Assembly (NCBI GenBank): GCA_964057225.1 | Contig: OZ059896.1 | Span: 15,066,001 to 15,130,000 of the forward strand | DNA length: 64,000 bases | Source of the DNA: Auanema rhodensis | Lineage: Eukaryota; Animalia; Nematoda | Direction of reading: 5' to 3' | Part shown: piece by piece, positions 11,274 to 45,420 of the stretch | Numbering within the stretch: position 1 is the first letter of the stretch | Layout of the letters: each line of letters begins with the position of its first letter | Position numbers and translations under genes: made by a program | Notes under the pieces: model-generated | What the model was told of the DNA's origin: nothing | Databases searched by the model: none | What the model saw: only the letters and a program-made list of their open reading frames with translations

Positions 11274-11286
11274 TGGAGGTTCCACC
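11274..11286 (+). promoter_or_regulatory. Primer-binding site, tRNA-Gln
   Basis: TGGAGGTTCCACC, complementary to the metazoan tRNA-Gln 3' end GGTGGAACCT-CCA. Confidence 0.85.
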
Positions 11287-12426
11287 TTGCTTACTTTACT
11301 GTTAATTTATTGACAGCAAGTTTACGAGACTTTTGGACTTAATTACCCAACAGTGAGGAGTAACCGAGCCGTGCACCATGATTTCCCCAAAAATTATTTT
11401 GGCTACCACTTCTCCTCCGCTCAACGAAAACTGGGAGGTGTCTGAGACGTTTGGGGAAACTATCAGACAATAGTTTTGACGAGCGTTACCTTTTTGTTAT
11501 GCACGCGCGTGCTATTTTGATTCATTACTTTATGATGTGAATGTCCAGTGTGGCAACAGAGCTCACTTTTTAGCTGAGTTGTTTGGAAGCTGGAGGCTGT
11601 TGGGATAATTTTATTTACGATTTTTTGATTTTGATTCACATCCAAGGGTTCATCAGGGTTCTACTCCTGTTAACTCTTTTCTTATTAGTTCAGAGATAAT
11701 AAGAATATTTAAATTCCTACCCACCCAAGTCCACTCTACGTCTGCCAACGTTTCCTTTTTCCTATATTATTGACAGATTACTGAATTTAAATTCCTATAT
11801 CAATCTTAAATTACCTTCTAAATCTTTTGAAATTAAATTAAAAATTATCTTAATTAAGATTTATTTTGAAATTCTTTCTACAAATCTTAATAAACTTTAT
11901 AAAATTGAACTTAATATACGAGATGAGACATTTTTGTTTACTTTAAGCTTACTCACATTCAAATAGTTGGCCCACGCGTACCAGCTGTTCGATATGTGTA
12001 GTCAATAACAGCTGTTAAAATTCAAAAGTTTTCAAACAGGCTTAAGGCACCATCTGTGATTCCTTATTTGTCTCTAAGCTGACATAAGTGATTATAATAT
12101 TCAAATATCACGACAGACGGTCAATGGTTGTTTACCATAAGCGCTAACATCTGGTGTCGTGACACATGGCTGGAGGCGGAGCTTGAAGCTTCAACGATCC
12201 TCCTTCATCAGACGCCATTGTCACAAACGTTTTTACTGGAGTCTAGTTGCTTCCAGTACGCGCTCTTATATTCATCTAACTGTATTCACCAGCCACCCTG
12301 TCGGACTCGGACATCAGCGAGGAAAACAAAGATCAGGAACAAGGATCACCAGAGGTACGCCAAGTTTTTGAATTTAATTCTAAAAACTTAAATACTCCAT
12401 CCACCTACCTCTCTCCTTTTGAATTT

Positions 12427-16300: not shown

Positions 16301-19300
16301 ATAAAATGTTATCTCTCCCCTACTTCTATGTTAAAAATAAACCATATCATGTTGAGCCCAACAGCTCCACCACTTGAGGGAGATGAGATTCATGAAACAG
16401 TTAGTGATGAATTGATGCGGAGCTATTTTCGCACCATCATAACTTACATTCCTTTAGCCATACCTTTTGTATGTCACACAACAACAAAGAAAAATGGACA
16501 CTTGTTACCGTTTGTTCATATTGACATTGAAGGTAGAGGACTGTTAGCATTATGGGATTCTGGAGCTACTGTCTCATATATTCCGTTCTCCACATTGGCA
16601 TATATTGGAAGACAATATTTTACAAAATATTCTAAATCTGCATCCACTGCAAATGGATCAGAGTTTCGCTTTGTGGGAAAATGCAAGTTAGATGTGGGTA
16701 TAGCAGGTTACCAAGTGGAACACGAATTTTTAATATCTGAAGACAATGACTGTCCAGGACAAATGTTACTTGGTACTGATTTTATGCGTACGTTGGAAGA
16801 AAGAGAGATATTTACTACATTAAAACTATGTAAAGGAAAGTTGATTGTTGGTAATATGGAAACACCCTTAGTAAAACCTGGTTGTTTTGCATATAAAACC
16901 ACAACTAAAACAGTAAATATCATAAGTTTGTCCACAGTAACAGTTCCACCACATAGTACCTCCCACATATCTTTGCAAACAGGACCAGAATTAGATTTTG
17001 ATCAATATGCTCTTTTAAAATCTAGCATAGGTCCTATCTCAATTCCAGATGCCGCCATAGGACCTTTTCCTATTACTATGGTAGTATCAAACAATTCTTC
17101 AAAGCCAATTAAAATTAATAAAAATGACCACATTGGTTCAGGACTTATAGCATCTAAAGAAATTATGAACGATTATGTTCCACCTGAAGCTGATTGGGAA
17201 GATAAGTTACCAACTTTTCCTCAGCATCTTTTGGATGATTTGAACTTCAATTCTTGCACTCTGTCCCATAAAATGAAGAAAAATCTGATCACAATCATTA
17301 AGGAAAACCAAACGGCATTTTTCAACCATGATCATAATATTGGTCTCTTTTGCGGACCAGTAGAACATGCCATTCCTATAAGATCCGATATGGATTTCCC
17401 AAAAAGTAGATCTTACAGAGTACCATTGGGTAAGCAAGAAGAAGTAGAACGGCAAGTGAAAGAAATGTTGTCGCAAGGTATAATCGAAAATTCGACGGCT
17501 ACTTTCACTAGTCCAGTTGTTCTTGTGAAAAAGAAAGATAATTCTTTCCGGTTCGTAACTGACTTTAGAGCATTGAATAGTGTTACTAAGAAACAAACAT
17601 ACAGCATCCCACACATTCCTGATATCATAGACTTAGCGGCTGGAGCTCAGTTCTTTTCGAATTTTGATCTCATTTCTGGTTTCTTCCAAATACCGTTGAA
17701 ACGCTCAGATAGACACCTAACTGCTTTTACCACTCCATCAGGTACCTATCAGTATTGCCGAATGCCTATGGGATTGTGTGGAGCGCCACACACTTTTCAA
17801 TCCGCAGTACGATACTTGCAATCTCTTGTTAGATGCAAACTGTTTGTATATCTAGATGATTTGCTAATAATTTCGAACTCAGCTGATGAACATTTAAGAG
17901 ATATACAAGAAGTGCTGAAAAAGGTCACTGAACTAGGGTTAAAAATTAAGTTATCTAAATGTTGCTTTGCAGCCACTGAAGTAAAGTTTTTGGGTTTTGT
18001 AATAGGTAGAAATGGTGTTAAACCAGATCCTGCTAAGATACAGGCTGTTTCCGAATTTCCAAATCCAAGTACAGTTACGGCTGTCAGATCCTTTCTAGGT
18101 ATGACTAACTATTTTCGACGGTTTATTCAAAATTATGCCGGAATAGCTGAGCCATTGTATAAGTTAACACATAAGGATACTCCTTTTGAGTGGAAATCGG
18201 AACATGCAGACGCATTTAAAACTTTAAAAACATCACTGTGTACTGCCCCTGTACTGAAACCTCCTAAAGCAGACCAACCTTTTGTTATAGAAAGTGATGG
18301 CAGTATGATCGCTGTGGGAGCAGTTTTATTGCAATCAGCAGAGAAAAATTCTCCATTACACCCGATTGCGTTCGCTAGTAGAAAGTTGACTCCAGCGGAA
18401 CGGAAATATCCTCCTATTGAAGTTGAAGCACTCGGTTTAGTCTTTGCTCTTCAACAATTCCGTACCTATGTATTAGGAGTACCTACCACAGTTATCACAG
18501 ATCACCGACCATTAACCAGTTTAATGTCGCGTAAAGATCTCATAGGTAGATTAGCCAAGTATCAACTAATGATACAAGATTTCAACATAAAGATTGAATA
18601 TCGTCCTGGCAAATTAAACAGTGTCTGTGATGCTCTCTCCAGGTATATAGGAAACGAAGCAAATGACAGTCGTCCTACTAAACCAAAGGACAAAGTAAAA
18701 CCTGTTGATGCTTTTATTGCTCATATCACAACTATTTCTTCTATTGACCAACTAAATTGTGAAGAAATACGGAAAGTTCAAGCTGGAGTTCCCTGGATTC
18801 GCGAAGCACTTTCTCAAATTAATAATGATAACTGTCCGGCTAATATATCAGACCGGTATGAAGAACGAGAAGGCATATTACATGCAAAACAAACGAAAAA
18901 TTATTTGAAACCATCTATTATTTTGCCTCGAAACGACAAAATAACTGATGTTGTCATCAAATTTTTTCACGAAGATTCCAAAATTGGTGCACACCTAGGT
19001 ATAAATAAAACTACTGATGCGATTCGACGACGATTCTTTTGGACTAATATGGTTCCACAAATAACTGAATTTATTAATCGTTGTACAAAATGTGCAAGTA
19101 GGAAATCTAACCCACACCAATCGTATATTCAACCTATGGGAAGATTTGTTATACCCGAAAAGCCATTTGATCGTATTCATGTAGATATACTAGGTCCTTT
19201 ACCTCGCACTAATGATGGACATCGATACATCTTGAGTATTCAAGATGCTTTTAGTAAATGGGGAACAACTTGCCCATTAATAACACAAACGGCTACTGAA

Positions 19301-20035
19301 ATCACAAAAGCGTTTGTAATTAGATTTGTTTTCATATATGGACCACCAATGAGTATGATAACCGATAATGGTAGTAGCTTTTTGTCATCTGAATTTCAAG
19401 CTATGTGTAAACAATTTGGAATTAAACACACTACTACGCTACCATATCATAAAAATGCTAATGGACAAGTTGAGAGACTTCATAGAACTTTGGAAGAAGC
19501 TCTCTCTTCATTCGTGAATGAACAACAAACTAACTGGGATATACACCTACCCAAAGTTATGTTTGCGATCAATACGTTACCAAACTCATCAACATCTATT
19601 AGTCCATATGTTGTATTATTTGGTCGGGATGCAAGACTTCCTATTGACCATCAATTGCCTGGAAATAATCTTCAAACTGAAGAACCAGCCAATCCTACAG
19701 AAGATTTTGTCAATAGATCGCTAATACAAAATGAAAGCACATCTAATATAGTAAAAGATAGAATTGAAACATGCACAAAGAAGAATGAACAACGGTACAA
19801 TACACGAAATAGAACACAAAATAAAGAAATTCAGGTTAATGACTTAGTTATGATAAAAGTGAATTCTACTCGAAACAAACTAACACCTTCATTCGAAGGG
19901 CCTTATTTAGTTACAGCAGTTCAAAGATCTTTCGTCGTGGTTCAAACAGATAAAGGAAAAAGCAGAAGAGTACACAAGGACTTCGTCAAACCTTACCAAC
20001 GAACAACATCTATTCCGGTTATCACAATTTCTTGA
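13241..20035 (+). CDS. Element 1 Gag C-terminus-Env(gB-like)-PR-RT-RNaseH-IN polyprotein (biologically meaningful from ~13310)
   Basis: Signal peptide ~13574-13636, furin site RRRNKR 14411-14428, TM ~16238-16303, PR LWDSGAT, RT YLDD (17849), RH ESDGS/TDHRPL, IN HHCC-DDE-GPY. Confidence 0.92.
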   Translation: MKKEKEVGIIIIIKIIKIIKIIKKNNNWTQHNNGSNDYERERERPSAVRYNNNNSQNGNMNRRPNPGNRPFANGRNANSSSWNPRPSSPRRQRPSANGNGNSRVYSVATPFMPPVTLCLTLLTLSCLPFGSAKYQICAQSEGGILVTPPVVTGCHKAEIEKAHSVEVEIYLPKAEIESWEAWKCYVKKYKSCVRDFMFLRDRNTTFSHIETVDKKDCVRAHRNRMWNDKIMNAQQHSVFETPLNEHNPTRSWSTEECVEIEQFVLKRGIITRLKEDHIVSDLFINTDNCKGNEGFCATGEGAVIWQPPIPSVVCHYQKLGPFSAMLGDHILLVHSIESAFVLQNHSTSAHVQSCFEFAVFESSSEAIIRFTAYPRVYNLLDLSNTLLNADRRRNKRNALPQKHRSFSDDYLFVNAKSQPYAFPFLRPTFIFGSASITKFYAKYMRYAATSSYESLLQFAIDNPLFIDTIVSLGLTKDHITNWAKSNNFKDPNLLILQCMGIEEIKLATRQMINSMKLDDLITQVARRIEVPRLKRSLMKSTTSIEDFFRGMAHAVVYQATILDGTQTVPSIEQLARALYPSILPRSGNMNQSEIIATAQGMLFMIQQQSGKEQISRDMQVSRQQKADATVRNNQEQDLAIISKLPDYHNLYTKNSTAYYGFPPQSIEYPQENPKFNKTEVLEFISWVKTQITTDKNMVQHTTVTPITSTKTTIRSLTTPTSNAYERGRELYVAEVYDNVLHKSEHKTKTIIDNKLNYGFEKARLSIIDEFHQQFHTICKSQMETVKSWQAILRIHPTIGVRAMLQRDDIVARFVGRNVLKITTCQEIEPHFIYRNHSYNDKCYAETPVLTHDKQLFFAPIDSYDLSTEGHEINCEHKETEIWYENGTWRDYKGDTHKVDSIHSEKHDHYAELSKLRFTGRNLFENSTEKSLALSIGLTYGYSLSTSPHHDLLRVISRSRDWPQISSFILKGSKLIRDARKIVFSNWDLFIDFCIGSIERTLITIGCITLILCLMIALYFTIKCYLSPTSMLKINHIMLSPTAPPLEGDEIHETVSDELMRSYFRTIITYIPLAIPFVCHTTTKKNGHLLPFVHIDIEGRGLLALWDSGATVSYIPFSTLAYIGRQYFTKYSKSASTANGSEFRFVGKCKLDVGIAGYQVEHEFLISEDNDCPGQMLLGTDFMRTLEEREIFTTLKLCKGKLIVGNMETPLVKPGCFAYKTTTKTVNIISLSTVTVPPHSTSHISLQTGPELDFDQYALLKSSIGPISIPDAAIGPFPITMVVSNNSSKPIKINKNDHIGSGLIASKEIMNDYVPPEADWEDKLPTFPQHLLDDLNFNSCTLSHKMKKNLITIIKENQTAFFNHDHNIGLFCGPVEHAIPIRSDMDFPKSRSYRVPLGKQEEVERQVKEMLSQGIIENSTATFTSPVVLVKKKDNSFRFVTDFRALNSVTKKQTYSIPHIPDIIDLAAGAQFFSNFDLISGFFQIPLKRSDRHLTAFTTPSGTYQYCRMPMGLCGAPHTFQSAVRYLQSLVRCKLFVYLDDLLIISNSADEHLRDIQEVLKKVTELGLKIKLSKCCFAATEVKFLGFVIGRNGVKPDPAKIQAVSEFPNPSTVTAVRSFLGMTNYFRRFIQNYAGIAEPLYKLTHKDTPFEWKSEHADAFKTLKTSLCTAPVLKPPKADQPFVIESDGSMIAVGAVLLQSAEKNSPLHPIAFASRKLTPAERKYPPIEVEALGLVFALQQFRTYVLGVPTTVITDHRPLTSLMSRKDLIGRLAKYQLMIQDFNIKIEYRPGKLNSVCDALSRYIGNEANDSRPTKPKDKVKPVDAFIAHITTISSIDQLNCEEIRKVQAGVPWIREALSQINNDNCPANISDRYEEREGILHAKQTKNYLKPSIILPRNDKITDVVIKFFHEDSKIGAHLGINKTTDAIRRRFFWTNMVPQITEFINRCTKCASRKSNPHQSYIQPMGRFVIPEKPFDRIHVDILGPLPRTNDGHRYILSIQDAFSKWGTTCPLITQTATEITKAFVIRFVFIYGPPMSMITDNGSSFLSSEFQAMCKQFGIKHTTTLPYHKNANGQVERLHRTLEEALSSFVNEQQTNWDIHLPKVMFAINTLPNSSTSISPYVVLFGRDARLPIDHQLPGNNLQTEEPANPTEDFVNRSLIQNESTSNIVKDRIETCTKKNEQRYNTRNRTQNKEIQVNDLVMIKVNSTRNKLTPSFEGPYLVTAVQRSFVVVQTDKGKSRRVHKDFVKPYQRTTSIPVITIS

Positions 20036-20628
20036 AGGTAGTTTTTTTTTAACAAAATCAAATTGTTGAAATTTTTTAAATTTTATTTTGTTCCATTTCT
20101 GATTGTAACACTTCTTTGTTCTTGATTGATTTTCTCTGAGAAGTCTGCTATTGTTTTACAAGGTTTTGTTTTATTACTCCAACTCTCATTGAGTAGATTT
20201 TTTTTTTTCAACTCTTGTGAATCTTGCTATTTTTTTTTATGCTTAATCATTACTTGTATTCACCTTATGGACATTAGTCATACGGGTTAAACGAGTTTTC
20301 ATTTTTTTGTACAGAACGGGCTCGACCTATTCTCAGGGTAACACCGTACCTGTACAACTCAAGAAAATGAACGACTATATCACAGTCGAATGGTTTAGAA
20401 GCAAAGCTCTCGTTTGCAAGCATTTCACTACTCAAGTGAATGGAATAGAATCTATTCGATACTACATTTTGAATTCAACAAACTTGAAGAGACAATAGCT
20501 AAACTTTCAAATCGTATTGTATACATTATTTTTTATCGACTACACCATGATTTTTTTTTTCCAACATCCAACTATCTTAAAAAGTGAATTAATTTATTTT
20601 GTTTTTGAACGAGGACTTTCAACTTTTT

Positions 20629-20640
20629 AAGGTGGGGGGA
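20629..20640 (+). promoter_or_regulatory. Polypurine tract of element 1
   Basis: AAGGTGGGGGGA immediately before the 3' LTR. Confidence 0.8.
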
Positions 20641-21021
20641 TGTCACATCTGCAAGCACATGGTAAACATGTGCGCGCTATTCAAATAGCGGGAGCCTGAA
20701 CAAGCCCCGCCTACAACATGGGACACACATGGCACTCTTGCTTCTGGCCTAACCCAGATAGGTTGTCTTATAGCCATGTGAGTCTCATCTCTATATCATC
20801 TATATATATACTCTATTTAATACTTTATTATATCTCTTTATATTCTTTCTTAATGTAATTCTTATATTGTATTTTCTTGTTATCTGATAATGAATCTTTT
20901 TCTCTTTAAGTATTTGTCTTAATAAGGAAATCGGGGCGTTCGGGTCTGCCTACCTAAGGAACAAGGTAGAAGTACATATATCTTCCGACCATGAAAAGAC
21001 GGGAAGAAACAATATGTAACG
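20641..21021 (+). repeat. 3' LTR of element 1
   Basis: Direct repeat of 10893-11273, followed by TSD GTCG. Confidence 0.95.
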
Positions 21022-26613: not shown

Positions 26614-26958
26614 CGTTCCATTCGGACTCCCCATATATGTAGCTGAAGGGTTAGAGCCAGACGACCAGAGGACCGAGGAATGGCTCCGCCTTCCCTCGTT
26701 CCCTTGGTCGGGAGTTCGCCTCTTAGCAAGCTCATGGACGGCTTGTAGTTTAGTCTTTATACTTATATTTATCTTATTGTAATGTATCTTTATCTTTGTA
26801 TATTATTGTTGTAGTTTCATGCCAATAAATCTTTCTCTCTTTTATCTTATGATTGACCTTATGCTCTTTATTCCTTACCGCTACACCAAGGAATACTATG
26901 CGCGTCATAGTATAAACTACAATGGTTTATATTATCGACGCAGGAGCATAACGGAACG
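26614..26958 (+). repeat. 5' LTR of element 2 (CGTTCC...GGAACG)
   Basis: Direct repeat of 38351-38695; 6-bp perfect terminal inverted repeat; contains AATAAA. Confidence 0.95.
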
Positions 26959-26971
26959 TGGAGGTTCCACC
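26959..26971 (+). promoter_or_regulatory. Primer-binding site, tRNA-Gln
   Basis: TGGAGGTTCCACC directly abutting the LTR. Confidence 0.85.
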
Positions 26972-28720
26972 TCGAACTCATCTTTTGGAAAAAAAAAAAA
27001 AAAATTTTCTTTTATTGTAAAAGTCCATTTTTGCATTCTAAATTATAAATTCCTCCACTTGAAACAACAAAATGAAGGCGCCAATTTGTTTCAAGGTACA
27101 GATACAAGGGATCTCGCTTAAATGCGAGATAGGACCCATAAAATTTTTGCCCGCCGTCCTCAATTTAAAACCGTCTGAATGTCCACCCTTTTCTATATCG
27201 TATCTTGTACCGCTTCTCATGCCATTTTGAGGACGTTTGGATTGAAATAGAGGACACTTTCGCCAAACGAGAAATTATATTTGTTCACATTTTTTTTTGG
27301 GCATAAAGAAGTTTGATTATTGGAACAAAAAGTTATAAGACGCGCGCAATTGATTATAGTTTGTATATTTTGTGGTCAGGACTAGAATTTTGAAAAATTA
27401 TTATATTCAGACGTAAAAGATCATTTTACATATTATTTTGCGGGAAACCAAAAACGGTTACATAAATTGAATATAAAAAGAGACCACACTAGTCCGAAAA
27501 AGCCTGGTAAATCTGCAATAAGACTTCTCAGCTCTTATTTGACAGTCAGGTCAAGTTGGCGGAAACATAACTGCTACGGATTTTATCCCCGTAGATTATG
27601 TCACCTTCCTCAAATCATTTCGTTGTTTCAACTCATAAGATACCCCTTATTTCCTACAGTAATCCTAAGTAAATTGGAAATGTTTAAAAATAGACGTATT
27701 TTTCTCATTTTTAAAAAGAAATTCGCTTAGGAAAACGCACTTTTGCTTATTTTGATCAAGAAAAAGGACAGCCTTTTCAATAACTCTCCTCAAACCTCAT
27801 TAGCATGCACAATGTCGAAAACATTTTGAGCAAAACATGCTATTTAAGGGAAAAGGAATGAGGAAAAGATTGAAAACATAAGTCCGTTTTCTTGACGAAA
27901 ACAGAGCAAAGTGCACAAAAATAAAAACACAGAGTACAAACTTTATTCAGTCAATACCCATATTTGATTTGCAACCGAGTTCGAAACTCAGAGGCAAGAA
28001 ACATAGGAGTTTCGCTCGCAATTAAATCTTCACTATATTCTAAACCTCGCGAAGCCCTAAGTTCCAAACCAAATAATGAGTCATCATAAACAATATAGAT
28101 TTTAAACAATAATCTATATAATAAATAATAATAAAAATGACTCTTTTCCTGGTACCAGGCCCAAGGACGTGCGGTTAATAAACCGGCCCTACCATTATAT
28201 ACATGAGCGCATAGATCAACTAAGCACCTTCGACCAACAAGCTCCACTTCGGGAGCTACATCTACGAAGGTGGCAAAGTTTATATGGCCCTGCCCCAAAT
28301 AATACATTTGGAGATCTTCGATAAACTAAAGTAATCAAATAATCAAACATAAAATGGAGATACACAAACCATCAAAATTATATCAGGATGTGGCCTATAA
28401 GCCAAAACTCCTTCTCCATCGTATTCAACGATGGATTCGTATAATTTCCACAGGACATAAGTCATGCCAGTGGGATTATAACGTTGGAAATCCATTTTTT
28501 TTTTTCTTTCTTTTCTTTTCTTTTGTTTCTAACCTTAAAATAAATGTCCAAAGGCCGCAAAAGTACAAAGGGGACGACATGAATAAAGTTTTTTTTTGAA
28601 GATTCTAGAGCAGTAAGAAAACAAATTTAGAGGAAAGTGCAAGAGCGGATAAAAATAGTTTTTGAGAAGAGATAAACATCATTAACTATAATAAGCTTAC
28701 GGTAGATAGGCGGAGTCAGA

Positions 28721-31700
28721 TTGGTGGCCACGATTTGGAAAACTCCCTCTCATTTACCCTCCGCATCGCCCAGCGAAGCACGACTATCCTATTGCTCCCG
28801 AATCTCTCTCTCTCCCAACACACATCTAAAAGAATCTTACGCACCTTACATCAACATCCCACACGTAGCTCACCATTCTCGGTTTTTCCAAACCAAAAGT
28901 CCTACAAAGGTGGCCAAAAGATTTTCATCGGCTTTCCCAGCCCTTTACCCGTCCGATACCAACAGTGACGCTACTGTCGCAAGTCGTACCCGAAGCCGCA
29001 CCCGACTTCTCAGTGTTCAAATAGAAGAACCGCACCAACCAGACGAGAAGCCGAAGCCGCAAGTCGACAAGTTCTATACTCCCCGAGAAGGTACATATTC
29101 ACCTTCTGACGACACCGACGAAGACCCGGACTTCATCATAGCCGACGACAGCACTCAAACTCCAACTACAAATCCCAAGGTACGCTCAGTTGATACTAAT
29201 AAAAATTTGCGAAAAATTCAAAAGAAAAAGCCGACAACCGCATCTGCCTCACCGGTAACCTCAGACCCAAACGCGTCGAACTTATCAGTTATCACTGATA
29301 ACGCACCTTCCCCATCCTTCGGGTTAACACAAAGCCCGCAAGCGTCTTCCACGCCTATTAATCAACCACATTCGCTAACTTTAGAACCCACCCAACCTAG
29401 TGACAACCCTTCAACCTTATCAAAAATCACTGATAAGATCAAAAAGAATATCCCTAATAAGCGGAAGACAAAAACACCCAGTAAGCGCGCAACAGAAACT
29501 CTGTCAGCAGAAGCCAGCCTCGAAGGCATACAAGAAGCTTCACCCTTATCATTAACAACTGATAAGTTTAAAAACAAAAGATCTTTAACAAATCGACTGA
29601 TAAAGATTTTAAACTTATCCCCAGGCGATAACACAACACCCAGCGGAACAGCAAAACCCCGGTTTTCTTCACATAATCCTAATCTTAACAGATCAGATAG
29701 TGCGATCCCTAGCTCACGATCAACTGATAGAACATCGCCTCAGGCATCTGGTAAAGTCATCCAGGTTCCAAGAGCCCGTTTCGCAACAACTACACCTATA
29801 ATAGGCTCCTCTAGCAGAAACCCTAAGGCAATAGAACACACTCATCAAGATCCAACAAGGAGCGAAGTGATAATATCACCTATCACATACCCTGAGGGCA
29901 TCTCATCCGAAATGACCGAAACATCACGGCTTCCAGGAGCGGGTAAATCTACCATTGCTCAGGCATTAAGCTCCCCATATTGCCCTATATACGACGGAAG
30001 TCGCAACTTTAGAGACTTCGTGGCCAAGTTTAACACCTTTGCAAACGCCTTAGGCTTAGTTATGCCCGAAAGATTAACAATCTTACCATTACTTCTCAAA
30101 AACGAACGAGCTGAAGAAGCTTATACACAGCTTAGCGATACTATCAAGACATCTGGCTCGTGGAATACTCTCATCGAAGAACTTACCTCTAGGCTATGCC
30201 CAGAGTATAATCAAGATCCGGCGCTGATAACGCTACAGAATTCCACCCAAGGCGAGCTATCAGTGGATGGATTCGCACAAACTTTACGAAGCCTAAGCTT
30301 AAACGCTTTCTCCCATACAGACCCACACAAGGACCATATCCTTAGATCCACCTTTCTACGCGGTCTCAAAAACACAATACGCCCGGGGGTAATCAGAGCT
30401 AAACCAAAAACGTTTGCCGAGGCAATTGATAATGCCAGATGGGAGGAATCAATTGCTAACCAAGTATCCGACCCTCAGGCGCTACTGGTTAACGCAATCG
30501 ATAGAACATTCCCTCCCAGGCGCGACACCGGAAGGCGAGGAATCGGTAGAGGCTATCAATCATTTAACAATAGAAACTACCAAAATTATCAAAATTATCA
30601 AAGTTATCAAAATTCATCAAATAATCAGAAACCACAAAATCTGCAAAATTCTTTCGCAAGAAACCGCAATCTTGGTAATCGCGGTAGAAATTTCTCAAAT
30701 CCAAATTGGTATCAAAGAAATAACAACTTATCACGTAATCAGGAGAGTGATAACCGTCAACGCGGTAATAATCCCTTCAGGGGAAACAACAATAATAGAG
30801 GTAGAGGAAGAGGCTCAAGAGTCAATAATTTGACCTTGATATCCCCCTTAACACTAGCAGTAGCTTTATCAGTGATCTTATCACTAATCACTATAACTGA
30901 TGCTTATCAGATGTGCACTAAAGCTACAGGTGGAGCCCTCCTTATACCCCCACCCCTGAGGAAATGCACAATACCACCTACCAAACATGTCCTCCGCACA
31001 AACATACATCTGTATACAAGAAACCAGACGGCTCACGAATGGGATTCATGGCGATGTTCAAAAGAAATACATAAAATATGCATCAGGGATTTGCTATTTT
31101 TAAGAGATCATAACTCCTCCATTGTTCGAATTGAGCCAACAACAGAAAACGAATGTAGACTGGCTGTCCGCGACCGTAAATGGAAATCAGAAGACCTGAT
31201 TAAATTGGATAGCTTGACATACGCGACAACCGAACCTACATTCTCTCCAGCGCGCTCATTCAATTACGAACAATGCGAAGAAAAAGAACGACTGGTTTTG
31301 GAAAGAGGCGTTATGACCAGGATGCCAGACGACACCATATTGACAAATCTATTACTCAATACGGAAGGCTGTCTTGCACATCATGGCCAATGCGCATCCA
31401 ATACTTCAATGATCATCTGGGAAATCCAATCATACGAACAGAGATGCAACTATATAGACATGAGCGAATATGATGCCATCATTGGAGACAGCATAATACT
31501 GATTCCCAATACGCAGTCAGCCCTTGTTATCGACAATAAACAAATTCCAAAACAGATTACATCATGTTTTCCGCAACCTATATTTCAATCAACCACGGGC
31601 AATTATATACTTTTTCCAAAATATCCAAATGACAGTAATATACACAACTTAATTGAAAGAGAATATAAAAAGTTGCCAGCTAAGCGTCAAAAAAGGGCTA

Positions 31701-34700
31701 TAGCGCAATGCGCACTGCAATTGGACGAAAGCTGGATAAAAGAACAAGAAGACTACGAAACTTTAACATTGAACATATGCCCATACCCATTTTTACGTCC
31801 AGTAATGAGTAACCCTGGGATATCACAAATAATTCCTATAATTCGAGCCAGACGGACAATAGATCCAACATATTCTATCGTTAAGTGGATCTCAGCACAT
31901 CCCGAGCAGTTCAAATTCTTCCTACGAAGCACTACTTCGGATAGATCAATAGAAAGATTCTTAAAAATATATGAATTCTACGACCCGGAAGAAGCAATGC
32001 TTCAATTCTTCGCCCAAAAAGAACTGGCAGCTACCACAAGAGGAGCCGTTAAATACCTCACCTCCTTGCAACTTTTAGAGCAGATAGGCGATAGATTAAC
32101 AGCAGAAGAATTTGACGAAAAAATACTCACAAAAGAAGGAAGTTATCGAGAGCGAACCGAAAGTATAGCGCTCGAGTTGGCATTTACACCGACCATTTTC
32201 GCTCAAAATAACATGTCGGTGCCATCAAAACAAGAAGTTTTGAAAGCATTTGTAAACATGCCGCCAATCAGGCCCGTATTATCAACTAATAACGAAAAGG
32301 AACAACTGATTATTAAAGAAACAATTGACCTATATCACCAAGTTCTCAAACTACGTACAATAAAACCCAATCGAACAGCGGCCAGAGCAGACGATGAAAG
32401 ATTTCGACATCTGCCTGTACCAACTATTATCCTGCCAGATATAGAGAAATTATATCGAGATATGGAGAATAATTTTGGTATACCTGTTGGGCCCCATCAA
32501 CAAACAAAAAGTCCTAACAAATATACACGAAATCTTCTCATTCAAACCTTTCTACCGCTACTAGAGGATAAAAGAACACCTCCCTACTCAACCAGACGCC
32601 TGACAGACAAAACTGAATATATAACGACAACAACGGAAGTAACAAAGCTAATCCAGGACCCTCAAACAACGCCAGAGATCGATACAACTCAAACCATAAC
32701 ATCCACGCGCGCGCCAACAACGGTTACATTAATATATGGTGTTCACAAAGAACAGCCTATTACTACGTTTGCAACGGTCACAGATATGTCTTTAAGATCG
32801 CAAAGAAAGCAGAGAACGTCATCACCACCTTTGGAGATTGAAACGAAAGCAGTACAAGCGCAAGCACATTATATAGGCTCCAAAGTAAACAACGAGATAC
32901 AATATAAACAGAATATATCTCAGAGAATAGCGCAAGATCATCTACAATATGCAACCACTCTTATACAGGAAGAATTGCAAAAGCATTTTATGGAATCTTA
33001 CGAATCCATATGCGAGATACAAAATAGATATCTCGAATTGTGGCGTTCAATTCTCCAAATAGAGCCAACCATAGCAATGAGAACAATCCTTGGCAGAGAA
33101 GACATAGCAGCGCGTTTCGTGGGCAGCGAAATAGTTCATGTTCACATATGCCTTCCAATAGAGCCTAAAACCGTTCACCACTCTCATAAAATCAATGAAA
33201 CATGTTACTTAGAGACACCAGTAACAACCGAAGACAACAAATTATATTTCGCAGCACCGGGATCAAGAGATTTACTCTCGTACGGGAAAGAAATCGACTG
33301 CGAACACGTACCAACTGATATTTATGAGAAAAACGGGGAATGGATGAACATTAATGGGTCTGTGGAAGTCAATCCCATCACACTTTTTGATGGAGCTCAC
33401 CAACATAAAGTTACGCCTTTAAAATTTACAGGTGCTCATCTTTATACTAATCTTTCATCAAGAGTCTATTCAATGACTACTGCAATAGCGTATGGAGCTA
33501 GTTTAGCTTCAATACGACAAAATCACGTACTAAATACGATTCACAACGACCCAAAGATAACGTCAGCCTTTATTCTTTTGAAAAAGGGCAGCGATTATAT
33601 TTCGAAAGCAACTGAGTTCACAACTACAGCCGGGAATAGCATAAAACAATTCTTAATGGGGACAATTGAAAGAACCTTAATATTAATAGGATCTACTGTT
33701 CTAATCATTGCAGCAATCATAATTACCATCTTTGCCGGAAAATTTTACTTTTTCAAAGCAATGCCACTACCAGTCATGCATATTCAAAGAGCAGACAACG
33801 AGCCCCCAGGCTACGAGGAAACATTAGAACTCGTTAGCCGCCCAGACCAACCAATGCCAGAAAATATAATGAAGCAGTATTACCCGGCGCTCGTAACATT
33901 CATTCCACTAGCAATACCATTTATTGCTTTTATTAAATCAAAAGAAACAAAGCTACCACTTATCTATATATCAGTAGAAGATAAGCTGATATTAGCTTTA
34001 TGGGATTCAGGCTCGTCAGTCTCATATGTCAGGCTATCGACATTAAAATACCTGAACATGGCTCAACACGTCAAAAAGCGACGATTAGTGGCAATGGCAG
34101 CAAACAAAACAACGTTTACATTATACGGAAAAATAAATTTAAACATCGAAATTGCTGGCTATGAGATAGAACATACCTTTTTGGTCTCAAATGACTGTGA
34201 TTGCCCAGCCCCTGCTCTTATTGGGATGGACTTTATGAGCACGCTCGACAGTGAAAACATTGATGTCAGTTTAAAACCATCGAAAAAGATGCTAGAGATC
34301 GGAAATTACGCACTCCCTTTAATTGAACAGGACGCCATTAAACAAACGGCAATAACAGTAAATATCATCAATTTGAAGAAAAGAATCATACAACCCGATG
34401 AAGAGTCCACTATTCCAATCAAAGCTGATAGACCACTCAAATCAAACGAAGTGGTAATCTTAGGGGACAACGGAAATGCATTAGCTTCAAGTTATCCAAC
34501 AGCTTTCCGTGAGACAAGTGGAGTATATGTAGTTTTCCGTAACAATACGGACAAAACATTAGCTATGGAAGCTAATTCAGTCATAGGGCAGGCAACAATA
34601 GGAGAAGTACCAAGCTGGCAAACAATACAAGAAGACCCTATGCAACCATATATTCCACCAGAAGCAGATTGGGAGAATAAATTACCCCACTTTCCAAGAA

Positions 34701-37654
34701 ATTTTATGAATGACCTTAATCTGGATAAAGCAGATTTGAATAATGAAGACAAGCACGAGCTCACAAACATAGTTAAGAGCCATCGTGAGGCCTTTCTTAA
34801 TGAAGATAGGAAGATAGGTCTATTTAAAGGACCCATTGAGCATACAATCCCACTAAGATCGGATATGGACATGCCAAGGTCAAGAATAACGAGGATTCCA
34901 CTTGGTAAACAGGAAGAAGTAGAAAAGCAAGTAAAAGAAATGCTAGAGCAAGGCATAATCGAACCCTCTACATCCCTCTTCAATAGCCCTGCTGTGCTAG
35001 TGAAGAAGAAGGATGAGACATATAGGTTCGTGACAGATTTTCGAGCCCTCAATAGTGTCACGCGTAAACAAACATACGTTATACCAAGCATATCGGATAT
35101 AGTTGACATGGCAGCTGGAGCTCAATTCTTCTCAAACTTCGATTTAGTATCAGGATTTTTTCAAATATCACTACGTAAATCTGATCGTCCTTTAACAGCA
35201 TTTACAACAACATCAGGCACGTATCAATATAAAAGAATGCCTATGGGTCTCTGCGGAGCCCCTCATACTTTTCAAACAGCAGTAAGATATTTGCAAAGTA
35301 AATGCTCTTGCAAATTATTTGTATACTTGGACGATCTGCTGATAATCTCTGATACAAGAAAGCAACACCTTGAAGATATCGACGAATTATTACATGCGGT
35401 CGAAAGTTTGGGAATGAAAATTAAGCTAAAGAAATGTGCCTTTGCTCAACCAGAAGTAAAATTTCTCGGATTAATTATTGGAAGAGAAGGAATAAAACCG
35501 GACCCTCAAAAAGTGGCTGCGATACAAGAATATCCGGCACCAAAGAACGCAACAGGCGTTCGCGCATTCTTAGGAATGGTTGGATTTTTTCGCAAATTCA
35601 TTAAAGATTTTGCAAGTATCGCAAGCCCATTGTACGATTTGACAAAGACGGATACCGAATTCGCTTGGGAAAAGCAACATCAGGAAGCTGTAGATCGATT
35701 AAAAAGAAGTCTCACCCAAGCGCCCGTATTAAGTCCACCAAAATCTGATCGATTATTCATTATCGAGAGTGACGGCAGCAACATAGCAGTGGGCGCAGTA
35801 TTATTGCAACCAGAAGATCCCACGCAACCATTGAAGCATCTTCATCCTATCGCATTTGCCAGCAGAAAACTGGTAAAAGCGGAACGCAATTACGCACCAA
35901 TCGAAATTGAAGCCTTAGGGTTAGTATACGCACTGAATCAATTTCGCACATACATACTGGGAACGCATACTATATGTATCACTGACCATCGCCCTCTCAC
36001 AAGTTTACTAACTCGCAGAGACCTATTTGGTCGTCTTGCTAAATTTCAGTTAGTAATACAAGAATACGACATTGAGATAAGGTACAGAGAGGGCCAGCTC
36101 AATAAAGTATGTGATGCATTGTCACGTTATATAGGCGATGAAGCAAATGATGCAAAGCCGGAAAAGAAGAAAAAGAAAAACGCAGAATCGATCAGAATAA
36201 ATACTATTGATACACCTGCTATAAAAGAAATTCAACAAAATACTCTATGGATAAAGAAAACAATCGCGGACATCGAATATAGAACGCAAAAGAAAATGGT
36301 CTCTAACGATAGATATTGCGTTATAAATGGATTACTCTACACAAAACCAACAGACAAGAAACCACATCCTGCAATCGTTGTGCCACAAGATCATCCAATC
36401 AAGGACGAGATAATAGAATTATTTCACGAAGATCCTACAATCGCAGCGCATCAAGGAATTAATAAAACTAAAGAAGCTATCCTACGGAGATTTTATTGGA
36501 CCAACATGCAAAATGATATCATGATATATATCAAAAACTGCATTAAATGCGCACAAAGGAAGAAGGACCCACATTCTATGACAGTACAGCCAATAGGTCA
36601 ATTTGAAATACCGACCAAGCCTTTTGAACGAGTTCATATGGATGTAATGGGACCTTTTCCCCCGTCAAAAAGGAATTGTACTTACGTTATTACCATCCAG
36701 GATGCTTTTACTAAATGGTCAACAACGATAGCAGTACCGCAAATTACGACAGAAATAACAATTGACAGATTTCTACGCAACTTTGTATACATATACGGAC
36801 CGCCTCATCGACTGATCACCGATAGAGGATCTAATTTTGTATCTCAAAAGTTTGAAGAAATGTGTACAAAACTGGGAATTCAACATGAACCCACCCTTCC
36901 TCACCAAAAGAACTCAAACGGACAAGTCGAAAGACTACACAGAACTCTTGAGGAAGGATTAACACACTACTTGAAGGAAGATCTAAGCGACTGGGATAGC
37001 GTATTGCCGAAAATTACATTCGCTATCAATAACATTCAGCATGCTACAACAGGCATAGCCCCATACGTAGCACTTTTTGGAAAAGAATGCAGAATGAAAA
37101 TTGATGCCGAATTACCGGGAACCATAACAAAAATCAAAGAGATTTCGGAAGAATTACTCACGAGAAGACCTCAAATGATGAAAATAGACCAAATAATACG
37201 TGAACGTATCGCCCAAAACCAAGAAAACGCCAGAAAGAAGAAGGATAGAACACAAAGGACGCACGAAAGGAACATTCAACCCGGCGACATGGTGATGACA
37301 ACAATAAAGTCACATAAAATTGGTCAGAAACTGAGGAAAAGCTATGACGGACCTTACGAAGTTATTAACGTACAAGGATCCAAGGTGCAGATAAGGAATT
37401 CATCAGGAAAGATACAAGATATCCACAAGGATAATCTCAAACTCTTCTCAAACGCGACTCAAAATATCACTCACAATACCCGCTCTAATACACGCAACAA
37501 TTACGAAGAAGAAGAAGAGGACAGCGATATAGAGATACTAAGAGTGATCAAAAGAAACGAGCAAGATAACACCGATAGCGAACCGGAATCAGAGAACGAA
37601 GATGGAGATGAATTATGGTTACCACGGATGAAAAATCAAAAAGAGAAAGCATGA
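28721..37654 (+). CDS. Element 2 Gag-Env(gB-like)-PR-RT-RNaseH-IN polyprotein (2977-codon open frame; first ATG at 29912)
   Basis: Gag CPIYDGSRNF; signal peptide ending TDA|YQMC (~30905); furin KRQKR 31682-31696; gB-like IEPTIAMRTILGREDIAARFVG..C and CYLETPV; TM ~33674-33750; LWDSGSS; YLDD 35324; IN HHCC/DDE/GPY. Confidence 0.95.
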   Translation: MVATIWKTPSHLPSASPSEARLSYCSRISLSPNTHLKESYAPYINIPHVAHHSRFFQTKSPTKVAKRFSSAFPALYPSDTNSDATVASRTRSRTRLLSVQIEEPHQPDEKPKPQVDKFYTPREGTYSPSDDTDEDPDFIIADDSTQTPTTNPKVRSVDTNKNLRKIQKKKPTTASASPVTSDPNASNLSVITDNAPSPSFGLTQSPQASSTPINQPHSLTLEPTQPSDNPSTLSKITDKIKKNIPNKRKTKTPSKRATETLSAEASLEGIQEASPLSLTTDKFKNKRSLTNRLIKILNLSPGDNTTPSGTAKPRFSSHNPNLNRSDSAIPSSRSTDRTSPQASGKVIQVPRARFATTTPIIGSSSRNPKAIEHTHQDPTRSEVIISPITYPEGISSEMTETSRLPGAGKSTIAQALSSPYCPIYDGSRNFRDFVAKFNTFANALGLVMPERLTILPLLLKNERAEEAYTQLSDTIKTSGSWNTLIEELTSRLCPEYNQDPALITLQNSTQGELSVDGFAQTLRSLSLNAFSHTDPHKDHILRSTFLRGLKNTIRPGVIRAKPKTFAEAIDNARWEESIANQVSDPQALLVNAIDRTFPPRRDTGRRGIGRGYQSFNNRNYQNYQNYQSYQNSSNNQKPQNLQNSFARNRNLGNRGRNFSNPNWYQRNNNLSRNQESDNRQRGNNPFRGNNNNRGRGRGSRVNNLTLISPLTLAVALSVILSLITITDAYQMCTKATGGALLIPPPLRKCTIPPTKHVLRTNIHLYTRNQTAHEWDSWRCSKEIHKICIRDLLFLRDHNSSIVRIEPTTENECRLAVRDRKWKSEDLIKLDSLTYATTEPTFSPARSFNYEQCEEKERLVLERGVMTRMPDDTILTNLLLNTEGCLAHHGQCASNTSMIIWEIQSYEQRCNYIDMSEYDAIIGDSIILIPNTQSALVIDNKQIPKQITSCFPQPIFQSTTGNYILFPKYPNDSNIHNLIEREYKKLPAKRQKRAIAQCALQLDESWIKEQEDYETLTLNICPYPFLRPVMSNPGISQIIPIIRARRTIDPTYSIVKWISAHPEQFKFFLRSTTSDRSIERFLKIYEFYDPEEAMLQFFAQKELAATTRGAVKYLTSLQLLEQIGDRLTAEEFDEKILTKEGSYRERTESIALELAFTPTIFAQNNMSVPSKQEVLKAFVNMPPIRPVLSTNNEKEQLIIKETIDLYHQVLKLRTIKPNRTAARADDERFRHLPVPTIILPDIEKLYRDMENNFGIPVGPHQQTKSPNKYTRNLLIQTFLPLLEDKRTPPYSTRRLTDKTEYITTTTEVTKLIQDPQTTPEIDTTQTITSTRAPTTVTLIYGVHKEQPITTFATVTDMSLRSQRKQRTSSPPLEIETKAVQAQAHYIGSKVNNEIQYKQNISQRIAQDHLQYATTLIQEELQKHFMESYESICEIQNRYLELWRSILQIEPTIAMRTILGREDIAARFVGSEIVHVHICLPIEPKTVHHSHKINETCYLETPVTTEDNKLYFAAPGSRDLLSYGKEIDCEHVPTDIYEKNGEWMNINGSVEVNPITLFDGAHQHKVTPLKFTGAHLYTNLSSRVYSMTTAIAYGASLASIRQNHVLNTIHNDPKITSAFILLKKGSDYISKATEFTTTAGNSIKQFLMGTIERTLILIGSTVLIIAAIIITIFAGKFYFFKAMPLPVMHIQRADNEPPGYEETLELVSRPDQPMPENIMKQYYPALVTFIPLAIPFIAFIKSKETKLPLIYISVEDKLILALWDSGSSVSYVRLSTLKYLNMAQHVKKRRLVAMAANKTTFTLYGKINLNIEIAGYEIEHTFLVSNDCDCPAPALIGMDFMSTLDSENIDVSLKPSKKMLEIGNYALPLIEQDAIKQTAITVNIINLKKRIIQPDEESTIPIKADRPLKSNEVVILGDNGNALASSYPTAFRETSGVYVVFRNNTDKTLAMEANSVIGQATIGEVPSWQTIQEDPMQPYIPPEADWENKLPHFPRNFMNDLNLDKADLNNEDKHELTNIVKSHREAFLNEDRKIGLFKGPIEHTIPLRSDMDMPRSRITRIPLGKQEEVEKQVKEMLEQGIIEPSTSLFNSPAVLVKKKDETYRFVTDFRALNSVTRKQTYVIPSISDIVDMAAGAQFFSNFDLVSGFFQISLRKSDRPLTAFTTTSGTYQYKRMPMGLCGAPHTFQTAVRYLQSKCSCKLFVYLDDLLIISDTRKQHLEDIDELLHAVESLGMKIKLKKCAFAQPEVKFLGLIIGREGIKPDPQKVAAIQEYPAPKNATGVRAFLGMVGFFRKFIKDFASIASPLYDLTKTDTEFAWEKQHQEAVDRLKRSLTQAPVLSPPKSDRLFIIESDGSNIAVGAVLLQPEDPTQPLKHLHPIAFASRKLVKAERNYAPIEIEALGLVYALNQFRTYILGTHTICITDHRPLTSLLTRRDLFGRLAKFQLVIQEYDIEIRYREGQLNKVCDALSRYIGDEANDAKPEKKKKKNAESIRINTIDTPAIKEIQQNTLWIKKTIADIEYRTQKKMVSNDRYCVINGLLYTKPTDKKPHPAIVVPQDHPIKDEIIELFHEDPTIAAHQGINKTKEAILRRFYWTNMQNDIMIYIKNCIKCAQRKKDPHSMTVQPIGQFEIPTKPFERVHMDVMGPFPPSKRNCTYVITIQDAFTKWSTTIAVPQITTEITIDRFLRNFVYIYGPPHRLITDRGSNFVSQKFEEMCTKLGIQHEPTLPHQKNSNGQVERLHRTLEEGLTHYLKEDLSDWDSVLPKITFAINNIQHATTGIAPYVALFGKECRMKIDAELPGTITKIKEISEELLTRRPQMMKIDQIIRERIAQNQENARKKKDRTQRTHERNIQPGDMVMTTIKSHKIGQKLRKSYDGPYEVINVQGSKVQIRNSSGKIQDIHKDNLKLFSNATQNITHNTRSNTRNNYEEEEEDSDIEILRVIKRNEQDNTDSEPESENEDGDELWLPRMKNQKEKA

Positions 37655-38350: not shown

Positions 38351-38695
38351 CGTTCCATTCGGACTCCCCATATATGTAGCTGAAGGGTTAGAGCCAGACG
38401 ACCAGAGGACCGAGGAATGGCTCCGCCTTCCCTCGTTCCCTTGGTCGGGAGTTCGCCTCTTAGCAAGCTCATGGACGGCTTGTAGTTTAGTCTTTATACT
38501 TATATTTATCTTATTGTAATGTATCTTTATCTTTGTATATTATTGTTGTAGTTTCATGCCAATAAATCTTTCTCTCTTTTATCTTATGATTGACCTTATG
38601 CTCTTTATTCCTTACCGCTACACCAAGGAATACTATGCGCGTCATAGTATAAACTACAATGGTTTATATTATCGACGCAGGAGCATAACGGAACG
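38351..38695 (+). repeat. 3' LTR of element 2
   Basis: Direct repeat of 26614-26958; preceded by short purine tract GAAAAAGGGCA. Confidence 0.95.
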
Positions 38696-44011: not shown

Positions 44012-44333
44012 CGTTCCATATTGGTTCCTAGGGTTCCGGCTAGGTAACCATATGGACTTTAATAGTGTGAATGCCATTGTAAAAGTAACAGAGAGTAGAG
44101 AAAAAGAAGTTTATTCAGAATATGGAAATACAATTATAAAAGCAAAATACAATAATCAAATAAATGAAACTACATGTTATGAGAAAGCCAACCTAGTTGC
44201 TTTCTCAGGGGTTTATATAGCAAAATATTAATTACAAATATAATTGAATTTATACAAAAAGTAGTTCAGGTCTAGTTTCTTATTGAATTCTATTAACCAA
44301 AAGTCGCCTTCTTTATAAGACACGTATGGAACA
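44012..44333 (-). repeat. 3' LTR of element 3 (322 bp; lacks a 17-bp hairpin segment)
   Basis: Matches 53858-54196 except for the missing GTTGACGTTGTCAACCG. Confidence 0.93.
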
Positions 44334-44562
44334 TGCCTTATATTGAAAAAGTAGCTGACCTCAGCTATAAGAAATTAGACCTTTTAAGGAAAAGAAACAA
44401 AAGAGAAAAATATATATATAAATGAATTAGAATTAGAATACTAGAATATCAATAATAGTGTAATAGGAATAATATTAAAAAAAATGAAAACAATATAAAA
44501 AGAAAAAGAAAAGAAAAGAAAAGAGAAGAAAAGAAAAACTATGAATTCACCTCGTGCAGCTG

Positions 44563-45198
44563 TTATCCTTCTTCCTCCTCGATTTGTCCCAGCTGGAAGT
44601 CGGTCGCGGGTTGCCGGTCGGCGACCGTCCATATGTGGAACAGGCTGACGTCTGTCAGCAGTTCCGTCGCCTGGCCTGCTATCATCATTTTCTTTCTTTT
44701 CTGGTCCGGAGTGGTGGCGCGCGTCGCCATTAGTATCCTTAAGGCCTGGCTGATCAGGTCTCCCGCCTTCCTAATCGACTGGTTAGTCGATTCCATCATA
44801 CTTTCTTCTGTCCAGCTCTTGTGGATCTCTTCCGCGGCCCATCTTGGGATGAGATCCGCGCTAGCTACATTTTCGGAGGCTGGATAGCCTAGATCTTCGC
44901 GTAGTTTGTTGATGGTGGCCTTGGTGCGGGCAGTGGCCTCGGACCAGTTTTGCGCCATTTTGGCCATCTCTTCTTCATCATTGTTACATGAACATTGTAA
45001 CCTTTCCAGAGTCTCTATTAATAGAGTAACTCTGGCTAAATTCTCCGAAAATGATTAGAGGATTCTTATCTTTTTAGTCCTGTTGTTTGTTGTCTCCAGT
45101 TGTTGTAGTTCTATCTGGAGCGAATGTATCTTGATCCACTTTTCCTTGATCATCGCGATAGGTGTCTCGCAGGCTGGTGGAGGGAAGACGAGTGCCAT
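44563..45198 (-). pseudogene. Element 3 accessory ORF downstream of pol (211 codons, one in-frame TAA at codon 48)
   Basis: ATG at 45198 is in frame with the 44563-44967 ORF; the only interruption is TAA at 45057-45055; TATATAAG box at 45249-45242. Confidence 0.6.
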
Positions 45199-45420
45199 TC
45201 TTGTGGTGCTGGGAGTTTTTCTGCTTGAGGTGAATTTTGAGCTTATATAGGGTGAAAAAAAATAGGTAAGTATATATTTTGTGATACATAGATATTAAGA
45301 TTGATGATTGGGGAAAACATTGTTTTTGTTGTTTGGGTAGCAGATAGAATGAATTATTGTAAATTAATAAAAAAAAATTAATTAATAAAGTTATTTTCCC
45401 AAAAAAGTTTCTATTTTTGA

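What the first reader, a model, noticed from the sequence alone, without database searches (positions are those of the whole stretch)
30820..34020. Flavivirus-like membrane-threaded processing scheme: internal signal peptide, stop-transfer TM and repeated candidate protease sites
Seen: directly before each signal peptide is a V-[NY]-x-[LV] motif (SRVYSV, SRVNNL, FHVNKV); similar motifs recur after the capsid domain (ELINAL, LLVNAI, LLVNNL), after the TM (KINHI, PVMHI), after PR (TVNII in both) and between RH and IN (FIAHI, RINTI, TISTI). Signal peptides end in small residues (GSA|KYQIC, TDA|YQMC, CQA|DNTYQLC). Inference: Gag stays cytosolic, Env enters the ER, Pol re-emerges after the TM; signal peptidase, furin and the element protease release the products, as in flavivirus/alphavirus polyproteins. 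This would tether Gag and Pol to the membrane at 1:1:1 stoichiometry with Env.
Basis: inference. Interest (0 to 1): 0.8.

Follow-up and report, generated by a model that had tools for sequence, protein, structure and literature searches.

The report
Nematode retrovirus polyprotein threads through membrane
A young retrovirus-like element in a nematode genome encodes capsid, envelope and enzymes in one reading frame (a gene order already published), and conserved signals in dozens of relatives suggest the chain likely threads once through the ER membrane, so that the enzymes would ride as the envelope protein's cytoplasmic tail next to predicted budding motifs.

Summary
B is a nematode Ty3/gypsy element with one gag-env-pro-pol frame and a gB-type fusogen. 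That gene order is published (Chary & Hayashi 2026; Sacco 2022, not read; planarian Burro), and the scan saw it on other DNA. The processing scheme holds up on relatives: a signal-like segment before Env in 40 of 41 chains, one TM after Env in 40 of 41, and no second TM in 40 tails. [VI]N-x-[VIL] is 8-9-fold enriched in both cytosolic linkers (0 of 200 shuffles reach it) and not enriched in the lumenal ectodomain. FIPLAIPF is likely not a TM, though it is hydrophobic in B's subclade. Two refinements: signal-peptidase cleavage would leave Pol joined to Env rather than Gag, and Env tails carry late-domain-like motifs (P[ST]AP in 5 of 38 relatives against 0.1 expected; PPGY in B). Rubella is a closer analogue than flavivirus. 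No cleavage, topology or transcript was shown directly.

The parts
26614..26958 (+). 5' LTR of element B (345 nt, CG...CG ends); 4-bp target duplication CAAC; inserted inside a tRNA-Tyr gene of a 162-bp array
   Evidence: 100% identical to 38351-38695; flanks
26959..26971 (+). Primer-binding site, tRNA-Gln type
   Evidence: First 12 nt complement the tRNA-Gln end listed for Caenorhabditis latens and C. tropicalis errantiviruses in eLife 108449 supp. 1
28706..37654 (+). Single open frame gag-env-pro-RT-RH-IN, 2982 codons stop to stop; first in-frame ATG at 29912
29981..30475 (+). Gag capsid domain
   Evidence: Weak Pfam Retrotrans_gag (E 8e-4) and Ty3_capsid (E 0.01) hits; own CA profile
30482..30499 (+). 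Candidate element-protease site after CA (LLVN|AI), predicted
   Evidence: Motif within 30 aa after CA in 23 of 41 chains
30500..30814 (+). N/Q/R/G-rich linker without a CCHC knuckle (likely RNA-binding)
30815..30832 (+). Candidate cytosolic-side protease site before the signal (SRVN|NL), predicted
30839..30904 (+). Internal signal peptide / signal-anchor; predicted signal-peptidase cut TDA|Y
   Evidence: KD19 2.29; h-region in 40 of 41 chains; N-side more positive in 31 of 40; no Met excess upstream, 8 of 40 against 7.7 expected
30905..33676 (+). Class III (gB / Monjiviricetes-type) fusogen ectodomain, 10 sequons, 16 Cys, with a helical and Thr-rich insert after the furin site
   Evidence: PF24664 E 8e-17, PF00606 E 5e-9; PDB gB hits; model pLDDT 70 with Foldseek gB and Nyavirus G hits
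31685..31696 (+). Furin-type site RQKR, predicted
   Evidence: Also in A and C; motif enriched 3-fold in ectodomains
33677..33733 (+). Transmembrane helix (stop-transfer), predicted
   Evidence: KD19 2.92; present in 40 of 41 chains; C-side more positive in 34 of 40
33734..33952 (+). Cytosolic tail/spacer: PVMHI site (33770), PPGY late-domain-like motif (33803-33814), YPAL (33881), Pro-rich hydrophobic FIPLAIPF (33899-33922)
33953..34315 (+). Aspartic protease (DSG at 34004)
   Evidence: Pfam Asp_protease_2 and gag-asp_proteas, E 2e-4
34823..36115 (+). Reverse transcriptase (YLDD) and RNase H
36389..37108 (+). Integrase (H2C2 + rve)
38351..38695 (+). 3' LTR, preceded by a purine tract
10893..21021 (+). 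Element A, a distinct family of the same layout (39% identity to B); frame break in an A-rich run between gag and signal; PTAP in the Env tail at 16358-16369; TSD GTCG
44012..54196 (-). Element C, a third family; in-frame loss of the end of env, the TM and PR; TSD TAAC; LTRs differ by one 17-nt insertion

Best explanation
Element B is a recently inserted nematode Ty3/gypsy element with one gag-env-pro-pol reading frame, and its polyprotein likely crosses the ER membrane in and out once: Gag would stay cytosolic, an internal signal would send the gB-type Env into the lumen, and a predicted stop-transfer helix would return protease, RT and integrase to the cytosol. Shown: the frame, domain order, identical LTRs, and conservation of two hydrophobic segments and of the linker motifs. 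Inferred: signal peptidase cuts at TDA|Y, giving a Gag held by the retained signal (as in rubella) and an Env whose cytosolic tail is the whole of Pol. Furin would cut RQKR. Env clustering would bring protease domains together; P[ST]AP/PPxY motifs in the tail would recruit ESCRT or Nedd4-type ligases for budding; the protease would then cut [VI]N|x[VIL]-type sites to free CA and the linker, trim the Env tail and release PR, RT and IN.
For: Signal-like h-region just before the conserved Env start in 40 of 41 chains at KD13 >= 1.6 and 37 of 41 at >= 2.0. TM between Env and PR in 40 of 41. No further segment with KD19 >= 2.0 in 27 ectodomains, 40 tails, 44 PR, 31 RT, 27 RH or 22 IN regions. Positive-inside bias fits at both segments, 31 of 40 and 34 of 40. 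No Met excess before the signal. Protease-like motif 8-9-fold enriched in the cytosolic linkers and not in the lumen; it matches the hydrophobic P2/P2', polar P1 preference reported for the retropepsin ASPRV1, whose site is IVFAN|SMGKG (PMC11402058 passages). P[ST]AP in 5 of 38 outside tails against 0.1 and in 3 of 4 further TM-bearing tails found by a Pol search. No strong splice donor in B's ORF and no acceptor-like word in the tails of A or B.
Against: The (-3,-1) cleavage test is weak: 34 of 40 against a 56% control. The FIPLAIPF segment is B's third most hydrophobic stretch (KD19 1.87, highest of 40 chains; 2.14 in close relative P0162). The sequon excess in ectodomains (1.4-fold) is matched in PR and IN (1.7-fold), so it is not specific. 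Late-domain-like motifs occur in only 9 of 40 tails, and PPxY alone is not significant outside the window (2 against 0.4; 11 of 200 shuffles). The signal lies about 310 residues from the likely start, so recognition may be incomplete. An obligatory 1:1:1 synthesis ratio differs from the Gag excess usual in retroelements (own knowledge). Some relatives are gene models that may hide introns.
Confidence: 0.62

Rival explanations
1. Same threading, but the first hydrophobic segment is an uncleaved signal-anchor, so Gag, Env and Pol stay one two-pass membrane protein until the element protease cuts on the cytosolic side.
For: Chary & Hayashi report gB-type ectodomains flanked either by signal plus TM or by two TMs. 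In flaviviruses the signal-peptidase cut waits for the cytosolic viral-protease cut (PMC7601889 section 2.2.1). The cleavage-site test is weak.
Against: Signal segments are less hydrophobic (KD19 up to 2.46) than most TMs and are followed by small-residue c-regions in 34 of 40 chains; the conserved Env start lies a near-constant 16-27 aa after the h-region start.
Confidence: 0.13
2. Dual topology: the internal signal is often missed, so much of the polyprotein stays cytosolic, is cut by the protease and supports ordinary intracellular retrotransposition; threading serves a minority of enveloped particles.
For: The signal is far from the N-terminus; candidate sites flank Env on both sides and could excise it; it would supply membrane-free Gag and Pol.
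Against: The h-region and its charge bias are well conserved; an untranslocated 900-aa Cys-rich ectodomain would likely misfold (inference).
Confidence: 0.12
3. Splicing or recoding produces Gag or Gag-Pol without Env, so Env and Pol are seldom in one chain.
For: C. elegans Cer1 uses splicing of its genomic RNA (PMC10309623 passages). Element A has a frame break upstream of the signal that could be programmed.
Against: No strong donor in B's ORF or NC linker and no acceptor-like word in the A or B tail; no stop separates env and pol in 41 chains; B and C are in frame where A is broken.
Confidence: 0.09
4. FIPLAIPF is a second TM that puts the protease and Pol in the lumen.
For: The segment is conserved and hydrophobic in B's subclade (KD19 1.4-2.1).
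Against: Median KD19 of the equivalent segment is 0.44 and only 4 of 40 reach 1.6; it is charged in Ancylostoma P0007; three prolines; Hessa-type sum +4.1 against -4.2 for the true TM. It sits where the PR N-terminal site is expected (P-x-[VI]-x-x-[VI] in 15 of 40 against 2.2). A lumenal RT/IN could not act on the genome.
Confidence: 0.04

Closest known systems
Nematode GAG-ENV-POL errantiviruses (Chary & Hayashi, eLife 2026, PMC13524379); non-canonical nematode ERVs (Sacco et al. 2022, J Gen Virol, not read)
   Same: Ty3/gypsy Pol, HSV/gB-type env between gag and pol, nematode host, tRNA-Gln PBS identical to some listed elements.
   Different: The passages I read do not discuss one-chain topology, protease sites or tail motifs. 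No Auanema entry is in supp. 1. That Sacco et al. call the ORF a continuous gag-env-pro-pol is recalled, not read.
Planarian Burro / GYPSM1 retroelements (Arkhipova & Yushenova 2019, PMC6431247)
   Same: Env in frame between gag and pol in one polyprotein.
   Different: Burro is about 4,900 aa with Ubl, Bcl-2, BIR and CCHC knuckles; B has none of these Pfam hits and no CCHC.
Rubella virus structural polyprotein
   Same: A capsid of about 300 aa followed by an internal signal that stays on the capsid as a membrane anchor after signal-peptidase cleavage; a PPAY motif in a glycoprotein tail (PMC11481484 passages).
   Different: No enzymes follow the glycoproteins; the paper finds the PPAY tyrosine recruits capsid rather than ESCRT, a warning for reading B's PPGY.
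Flavivirus polyprotein (anchored C-prM)
   Same: Viral protease site on the cytosolic side and signal-peptidase site on the lumenal side of one signal; enzymes downstream of the envelope in one chain.
   Different: Serine protease with dibasic sites, several membrane passes, class II fusogen (partly own knowledge); unrelated by descent.
Atlas virus (Belpaoviridae, Ancylostoma; PMC9094657)
   Same: Nematode element with a single Gag-Pol-Env polyprotein.
   Different: Env is last, class II, and RT has YVDN; nothing has to return to the cytosol after Env except a short tail.

Membership tests
Nematode GAG-ENV-POL errantivirus (Ty3/gypsy) | Ty3/gypsy Pol in order PR-RT-RH-IN | tested here: met
   Pfam order; YLDD in RT; nearest named Pol hits are nematode proteins, then gypsy 17.6-type
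Nematode GAG-ENV-POL errantivirus (Ty3/gypsy) | HSV/gB-type env between gag and pol | tested here: met
Nematode GAG-ENV-POL errantivirus (Ty3/gypsy) | LTRs and tRNA PBS | tested here: met
   100% identical LTRs, 4-bp TSD, tRNA-Gln PBS
Nematode GAG-ENV-POL errantivirus (Ty3/gypsy) | Nematode host | tested here: inconclusive
Nematode GAG-ENV-POL errantivirus (Ty3/gypsy) | Placement in the published RT tree and cysteine-bridge class | not tested
   No tree with the published sequences was built
Belpaoviridae (Atlas/Cer13-type) | YVDN RT motif and env after pol | tested here: not met
   YLDD; env precedes PR
Flavi/rubi-like threaded polyprotein (works like) | Internal signal then stop-transfer TM, with matching charge bias | tested here: met
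   Hydropathy and charge scans of 40-41 chains; SignalP and DeepTMHMM were not available
Flavi/rubi-like threaded polyprotein (works like) | Actual cleavage by signal peptidase, furin and the element protease | not testable with these tools
   Motif statistics only
Flavi/rubi-like threaded polyprotein (works like) | Translation from an unspliced RNA | tested here: inconclusive
   No strong splice words; no usable RNA run
Viral late domains (PT/SAP, PPxY, YPxL) | Motif enriched in a cytosolic, membrane-proximal region | tested here: met
   P[ST]AP 5 of 38 against 0.1, plus 3 of 4 in a second set; PPxY and YPxL not significant
Viral late domains (PT/SAP, PPxY, YPxL) | Binding of TSG101, Nedd4 or ALIX and a role in budding | not testable with these tools
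   none

The most novel reading that the evidence does not exclude
These elements have inverted retroviral assembly logic: Pol is packaged as the cytosolic tail of the trimeric fusogen instead of as a Gag fusion, the ESCRT late domain has moved from Gag to the Env-PR spacer, and Gag assembles on a membrane through a retained signal anchor. Replication, even within one germ cell, would then require budding and Env-driven re-entry, making them obligately enveloped invertebrate retroviruses.
Probability: 0.35. Interest if true: 0.75.

Novelty: new member of a known kind. Interest (0 to 1): 0.45.

Why it matters
The gene order is known, but how a single gag-env-pro-pol chain is processed is not addressed in the papers I could read. 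The comparative signals give testable positions for every cut and point to an assembly route unlike orthoretroviruses: equal synthesis of Gag, Env and Pol, Pol delivered by Env, and budding motifs on the Env tail. If true, it bears on whether nematode errantiviruses spread between cells and on how protease activation can be timed by fusogen oligomerisation.

Tried and rejected
No whole genome is held for the window. Sacco et al. 2022 is not in the library, so it may already state the topology. No RNA holder was listed; the three guessed-RNA contig sets covered little of element B. One contig joins 29149 to 37665, but the ends are not GT-AG and share a short repeat, so I read it as an internally deleted relative, not a splice. 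A single-sequence fold failed (pLDDT 32); the 62-sequence fold worked, though global TM-scores to gB are low (0.15-0.17 by query) because of the insert and domain arrangement. A search for longer homologues found none among 773 candidates. The ESM Atlas gave no usable hit for the Env insert (recognition below threshold). Sequon enrichment was rejected as topology evidence. YPxL and PPxY alone are not significant. Env-less gypsy controls show the protease-like motif only modestly (RH-IN 25 against 14.3, 1 of 200 shuffles; pre-PR 3 against 1.2, 26 of 200), so it is partly generic and stronger in this clade. The long ORFs at 38689 and 54111 are by-products of the 162-bp tRNA arrays. The two searches for Ty3 cleavage sites yielded no Ty3 site list in what I read.
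Full report
What is there. The window holds three LTR elements among 162-bp tandem arrays of an intron-containing tRNA gene. I read the unit as tRNA-Tyr from its sequence; ARAGORN, run without introns, labels 88 copies Leu. Elements A (10893-21021), B (26614-38695) and C (44012-54196, minus) have LTR cores that are 100% identical, 4-bp target duplications and a tRNA-Gln-type primer site. The finding lies in B, whose single frame (28706-37654; first in-frame ATG 29912) encodes capsid, a fusion glycoprotein, protease, RT, RNase H and integrase in that order. The glycoprotein is a class III fusogen: Pfam Monjiviricetes_fusion E 8e-17, PDB gB sequence hits, and a model (pLDDT 70) whose Foldseek hits are herpesvirus gB and mononegavirus G. 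The nearest named relatives are from nematodes, best Auanema sp. JU1783. A, B and C are different families (about 54-55% identity over RT-IN). A has a frame break between gag and the signal peptide, and C lacks the end of env, the TM and PR.

Observation.

Topology. A profile of the three Env regions found 516 proteins at E <= 0.001, of which the best 150 were returned. I analysed those 150 plus P0001-3, P0006 and P0007. Forty-one chains run from capsid into the Env start and 41 from Env into PR; each set includes two window proteins, and chains with partial profile hits or env after pol were left out. A hydrophobic segment precedes the Env start in 40 of 41 (KD13 >= 1.6; 37 at >= 2.0), and a TM lies between Env and PR in 40 of 41. 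No other segment reaches KD19 2.0 in any ectodomain, tail or enzyme region examined. Flanking charge is more positive before the signal in 31 of 40 and after the TM in 34 of 40. Met is not enriched before the signal (8 of 40, 7.7 expected), so it is internal rather than separately initiated. The small-residue cleavage rule is met in 34 of 40 against a 56% control, which is weak.

The FIPLAIPF segment. It scores KD19 1.87 in B, the highest of 40 chains (median 0.44), and 2.14 in one close C. brenneri relative; it is charged in more distant ones. It occupies the place of the expected PR N-terminal site. I read it as a cleavage site or surface-bound segment, not a TM, but B's subclade is the least clear case.

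Protease sites. Tested on proteins from outside the window, [VI]N-x-[VIL] is enriched 9-fold in 39 CA-to-signal linkers and 8-fold in 38 tails (0 of 200 shuffles reach either), and not in 25 ectodomains (15 against 22.9). It is modest between RH and IN and not significant after PR. A motif confined to the predicted cytosolic side is what a cytosolic protease predicts, so this supports the topology independently of hydropathy. Relatives share ancestry, though they come from separate 50% clusters. The pattern fits the specificity reported for the retropepsin ASPRV1 (PMC11402058, passages). Env-less gypsy controls show it more weakly.

The tail between TM and PR carries PPGY in B and PTAP in A. 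In 38 outside tails P[ST]AP occurs 5 times against 0.1 expected, and in 3 of 4 further TM-bearing tails found through Pol (one of the three resembles a member of the first set). That these are ESCRT late-domain consensus motifs, normally in retroviral Gag, is my own knowledge. Only 9 of 40 tails have P[ST]AP or PPxY, and the rubella paper shows such a motif can serve capsid recruitment instead. One search for late domains in gypsy Env tails listed no paper on the subject among the 12 of 19 shown.

Mechanism. Shown: frame, domain order, conserved segments and motifs. Inferred: co-translational threading; signal-peptidase cleavage leaving a membrane-anchored Gag and an Env-Pol chain; furin cleavage; budding; protease maturation. 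Because the protease is downstream and needs a dimer, Gag could not be freed during translation. The consequence is that Pol would be joined to Env rather than Gag. In C, loss of the TM would send RT and IN into the lumen, so C is likely non-autonomous. Splicing could not be tested with RNA; sequence scans found no strong donor in B and no acceptor in the tails.

Prior knowledge. Chary & Hayashi (PMC13524379; abstract, word-search passages, 30 of the 36 nematode rows of supp. 1; figures and other supplements not seen) describe GAG-ENV-POL elements with gB-type env in nematodes, bryozoans and flatworms and cite Sacco et al. 2022, which I could not read. Arkhipova & Yushenova (PMC6431247, passages) describe in-frame env between gag and pol in Burro. 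For Cer1 (PMC10309623), Atlas (PMC9094657) and rubella (PMC11481484) I saw passages; for PMC7601889 the abstract and section 2.2.1. Searches found no paper giving this processing scheme, but Sacco 2022 may. An earlier scan note on a planarian element gave the Burro lead.

Verdict. A new member of a known kind. The Env-tail motifs and the Env-linked Pol are the parts I did not find in print. Interest 0.45.

Noticed in passing
window 21300-26613, 38696-44011, 54197-62800: Tandem 162-bp arrays of an intron-containing tRNA-Tyr gene, about 106 near-full copies. B is inserted inside a tRNA gene and C in a spacer, which may reflect tRNA-gene targeting as in Ty3, or simple accumulation in an array.
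   Followed up: partly
window 31697-32900: About 400-aa insert after the furin site: a confidently helical part (pLDDT 70-86) then a Thr-rich mucin-like stretch; many relatives have only about 70 aa here. No family identified.
   Followed up: partly
window 28706-29911: 402 open codons with no ATG upstream of the likely Gag start, Ser/Pro/Thr-rich; a non-AUG start or a spliced leader is possible.
   Followed up: no
window 13300-13317: Frame break in element A in an A-rich run between capsid and signal; sequencing error, mutation or programmed shift not distinguished.
   Followed up: partly
LTR ends of A, B and C: All three LTRs end in AACG rather than the usual CA, with 4-bp duplications.
   Followed up: no
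window 44565-44967, minus strand: 134-codon ORF after pol in element C, a possible accessory gene.
   Followed up: no
P0017, P0027, P0031, P0082: Relatives with two or more protease-like domains in tandem after the TM.
   Followed up: no
window 5119-7863: ATPase-like ORF followed by an integrase with a chromodomain, with other unassigned ORFs at 1203-5105; possibly a Maverick/Polinton-type remnant (the label is recalled).
   Followed up: no
run X1 contig, joint 29149 to 37665: An internally deleted relative of B joined at a short repeat.
   Followed up: yes
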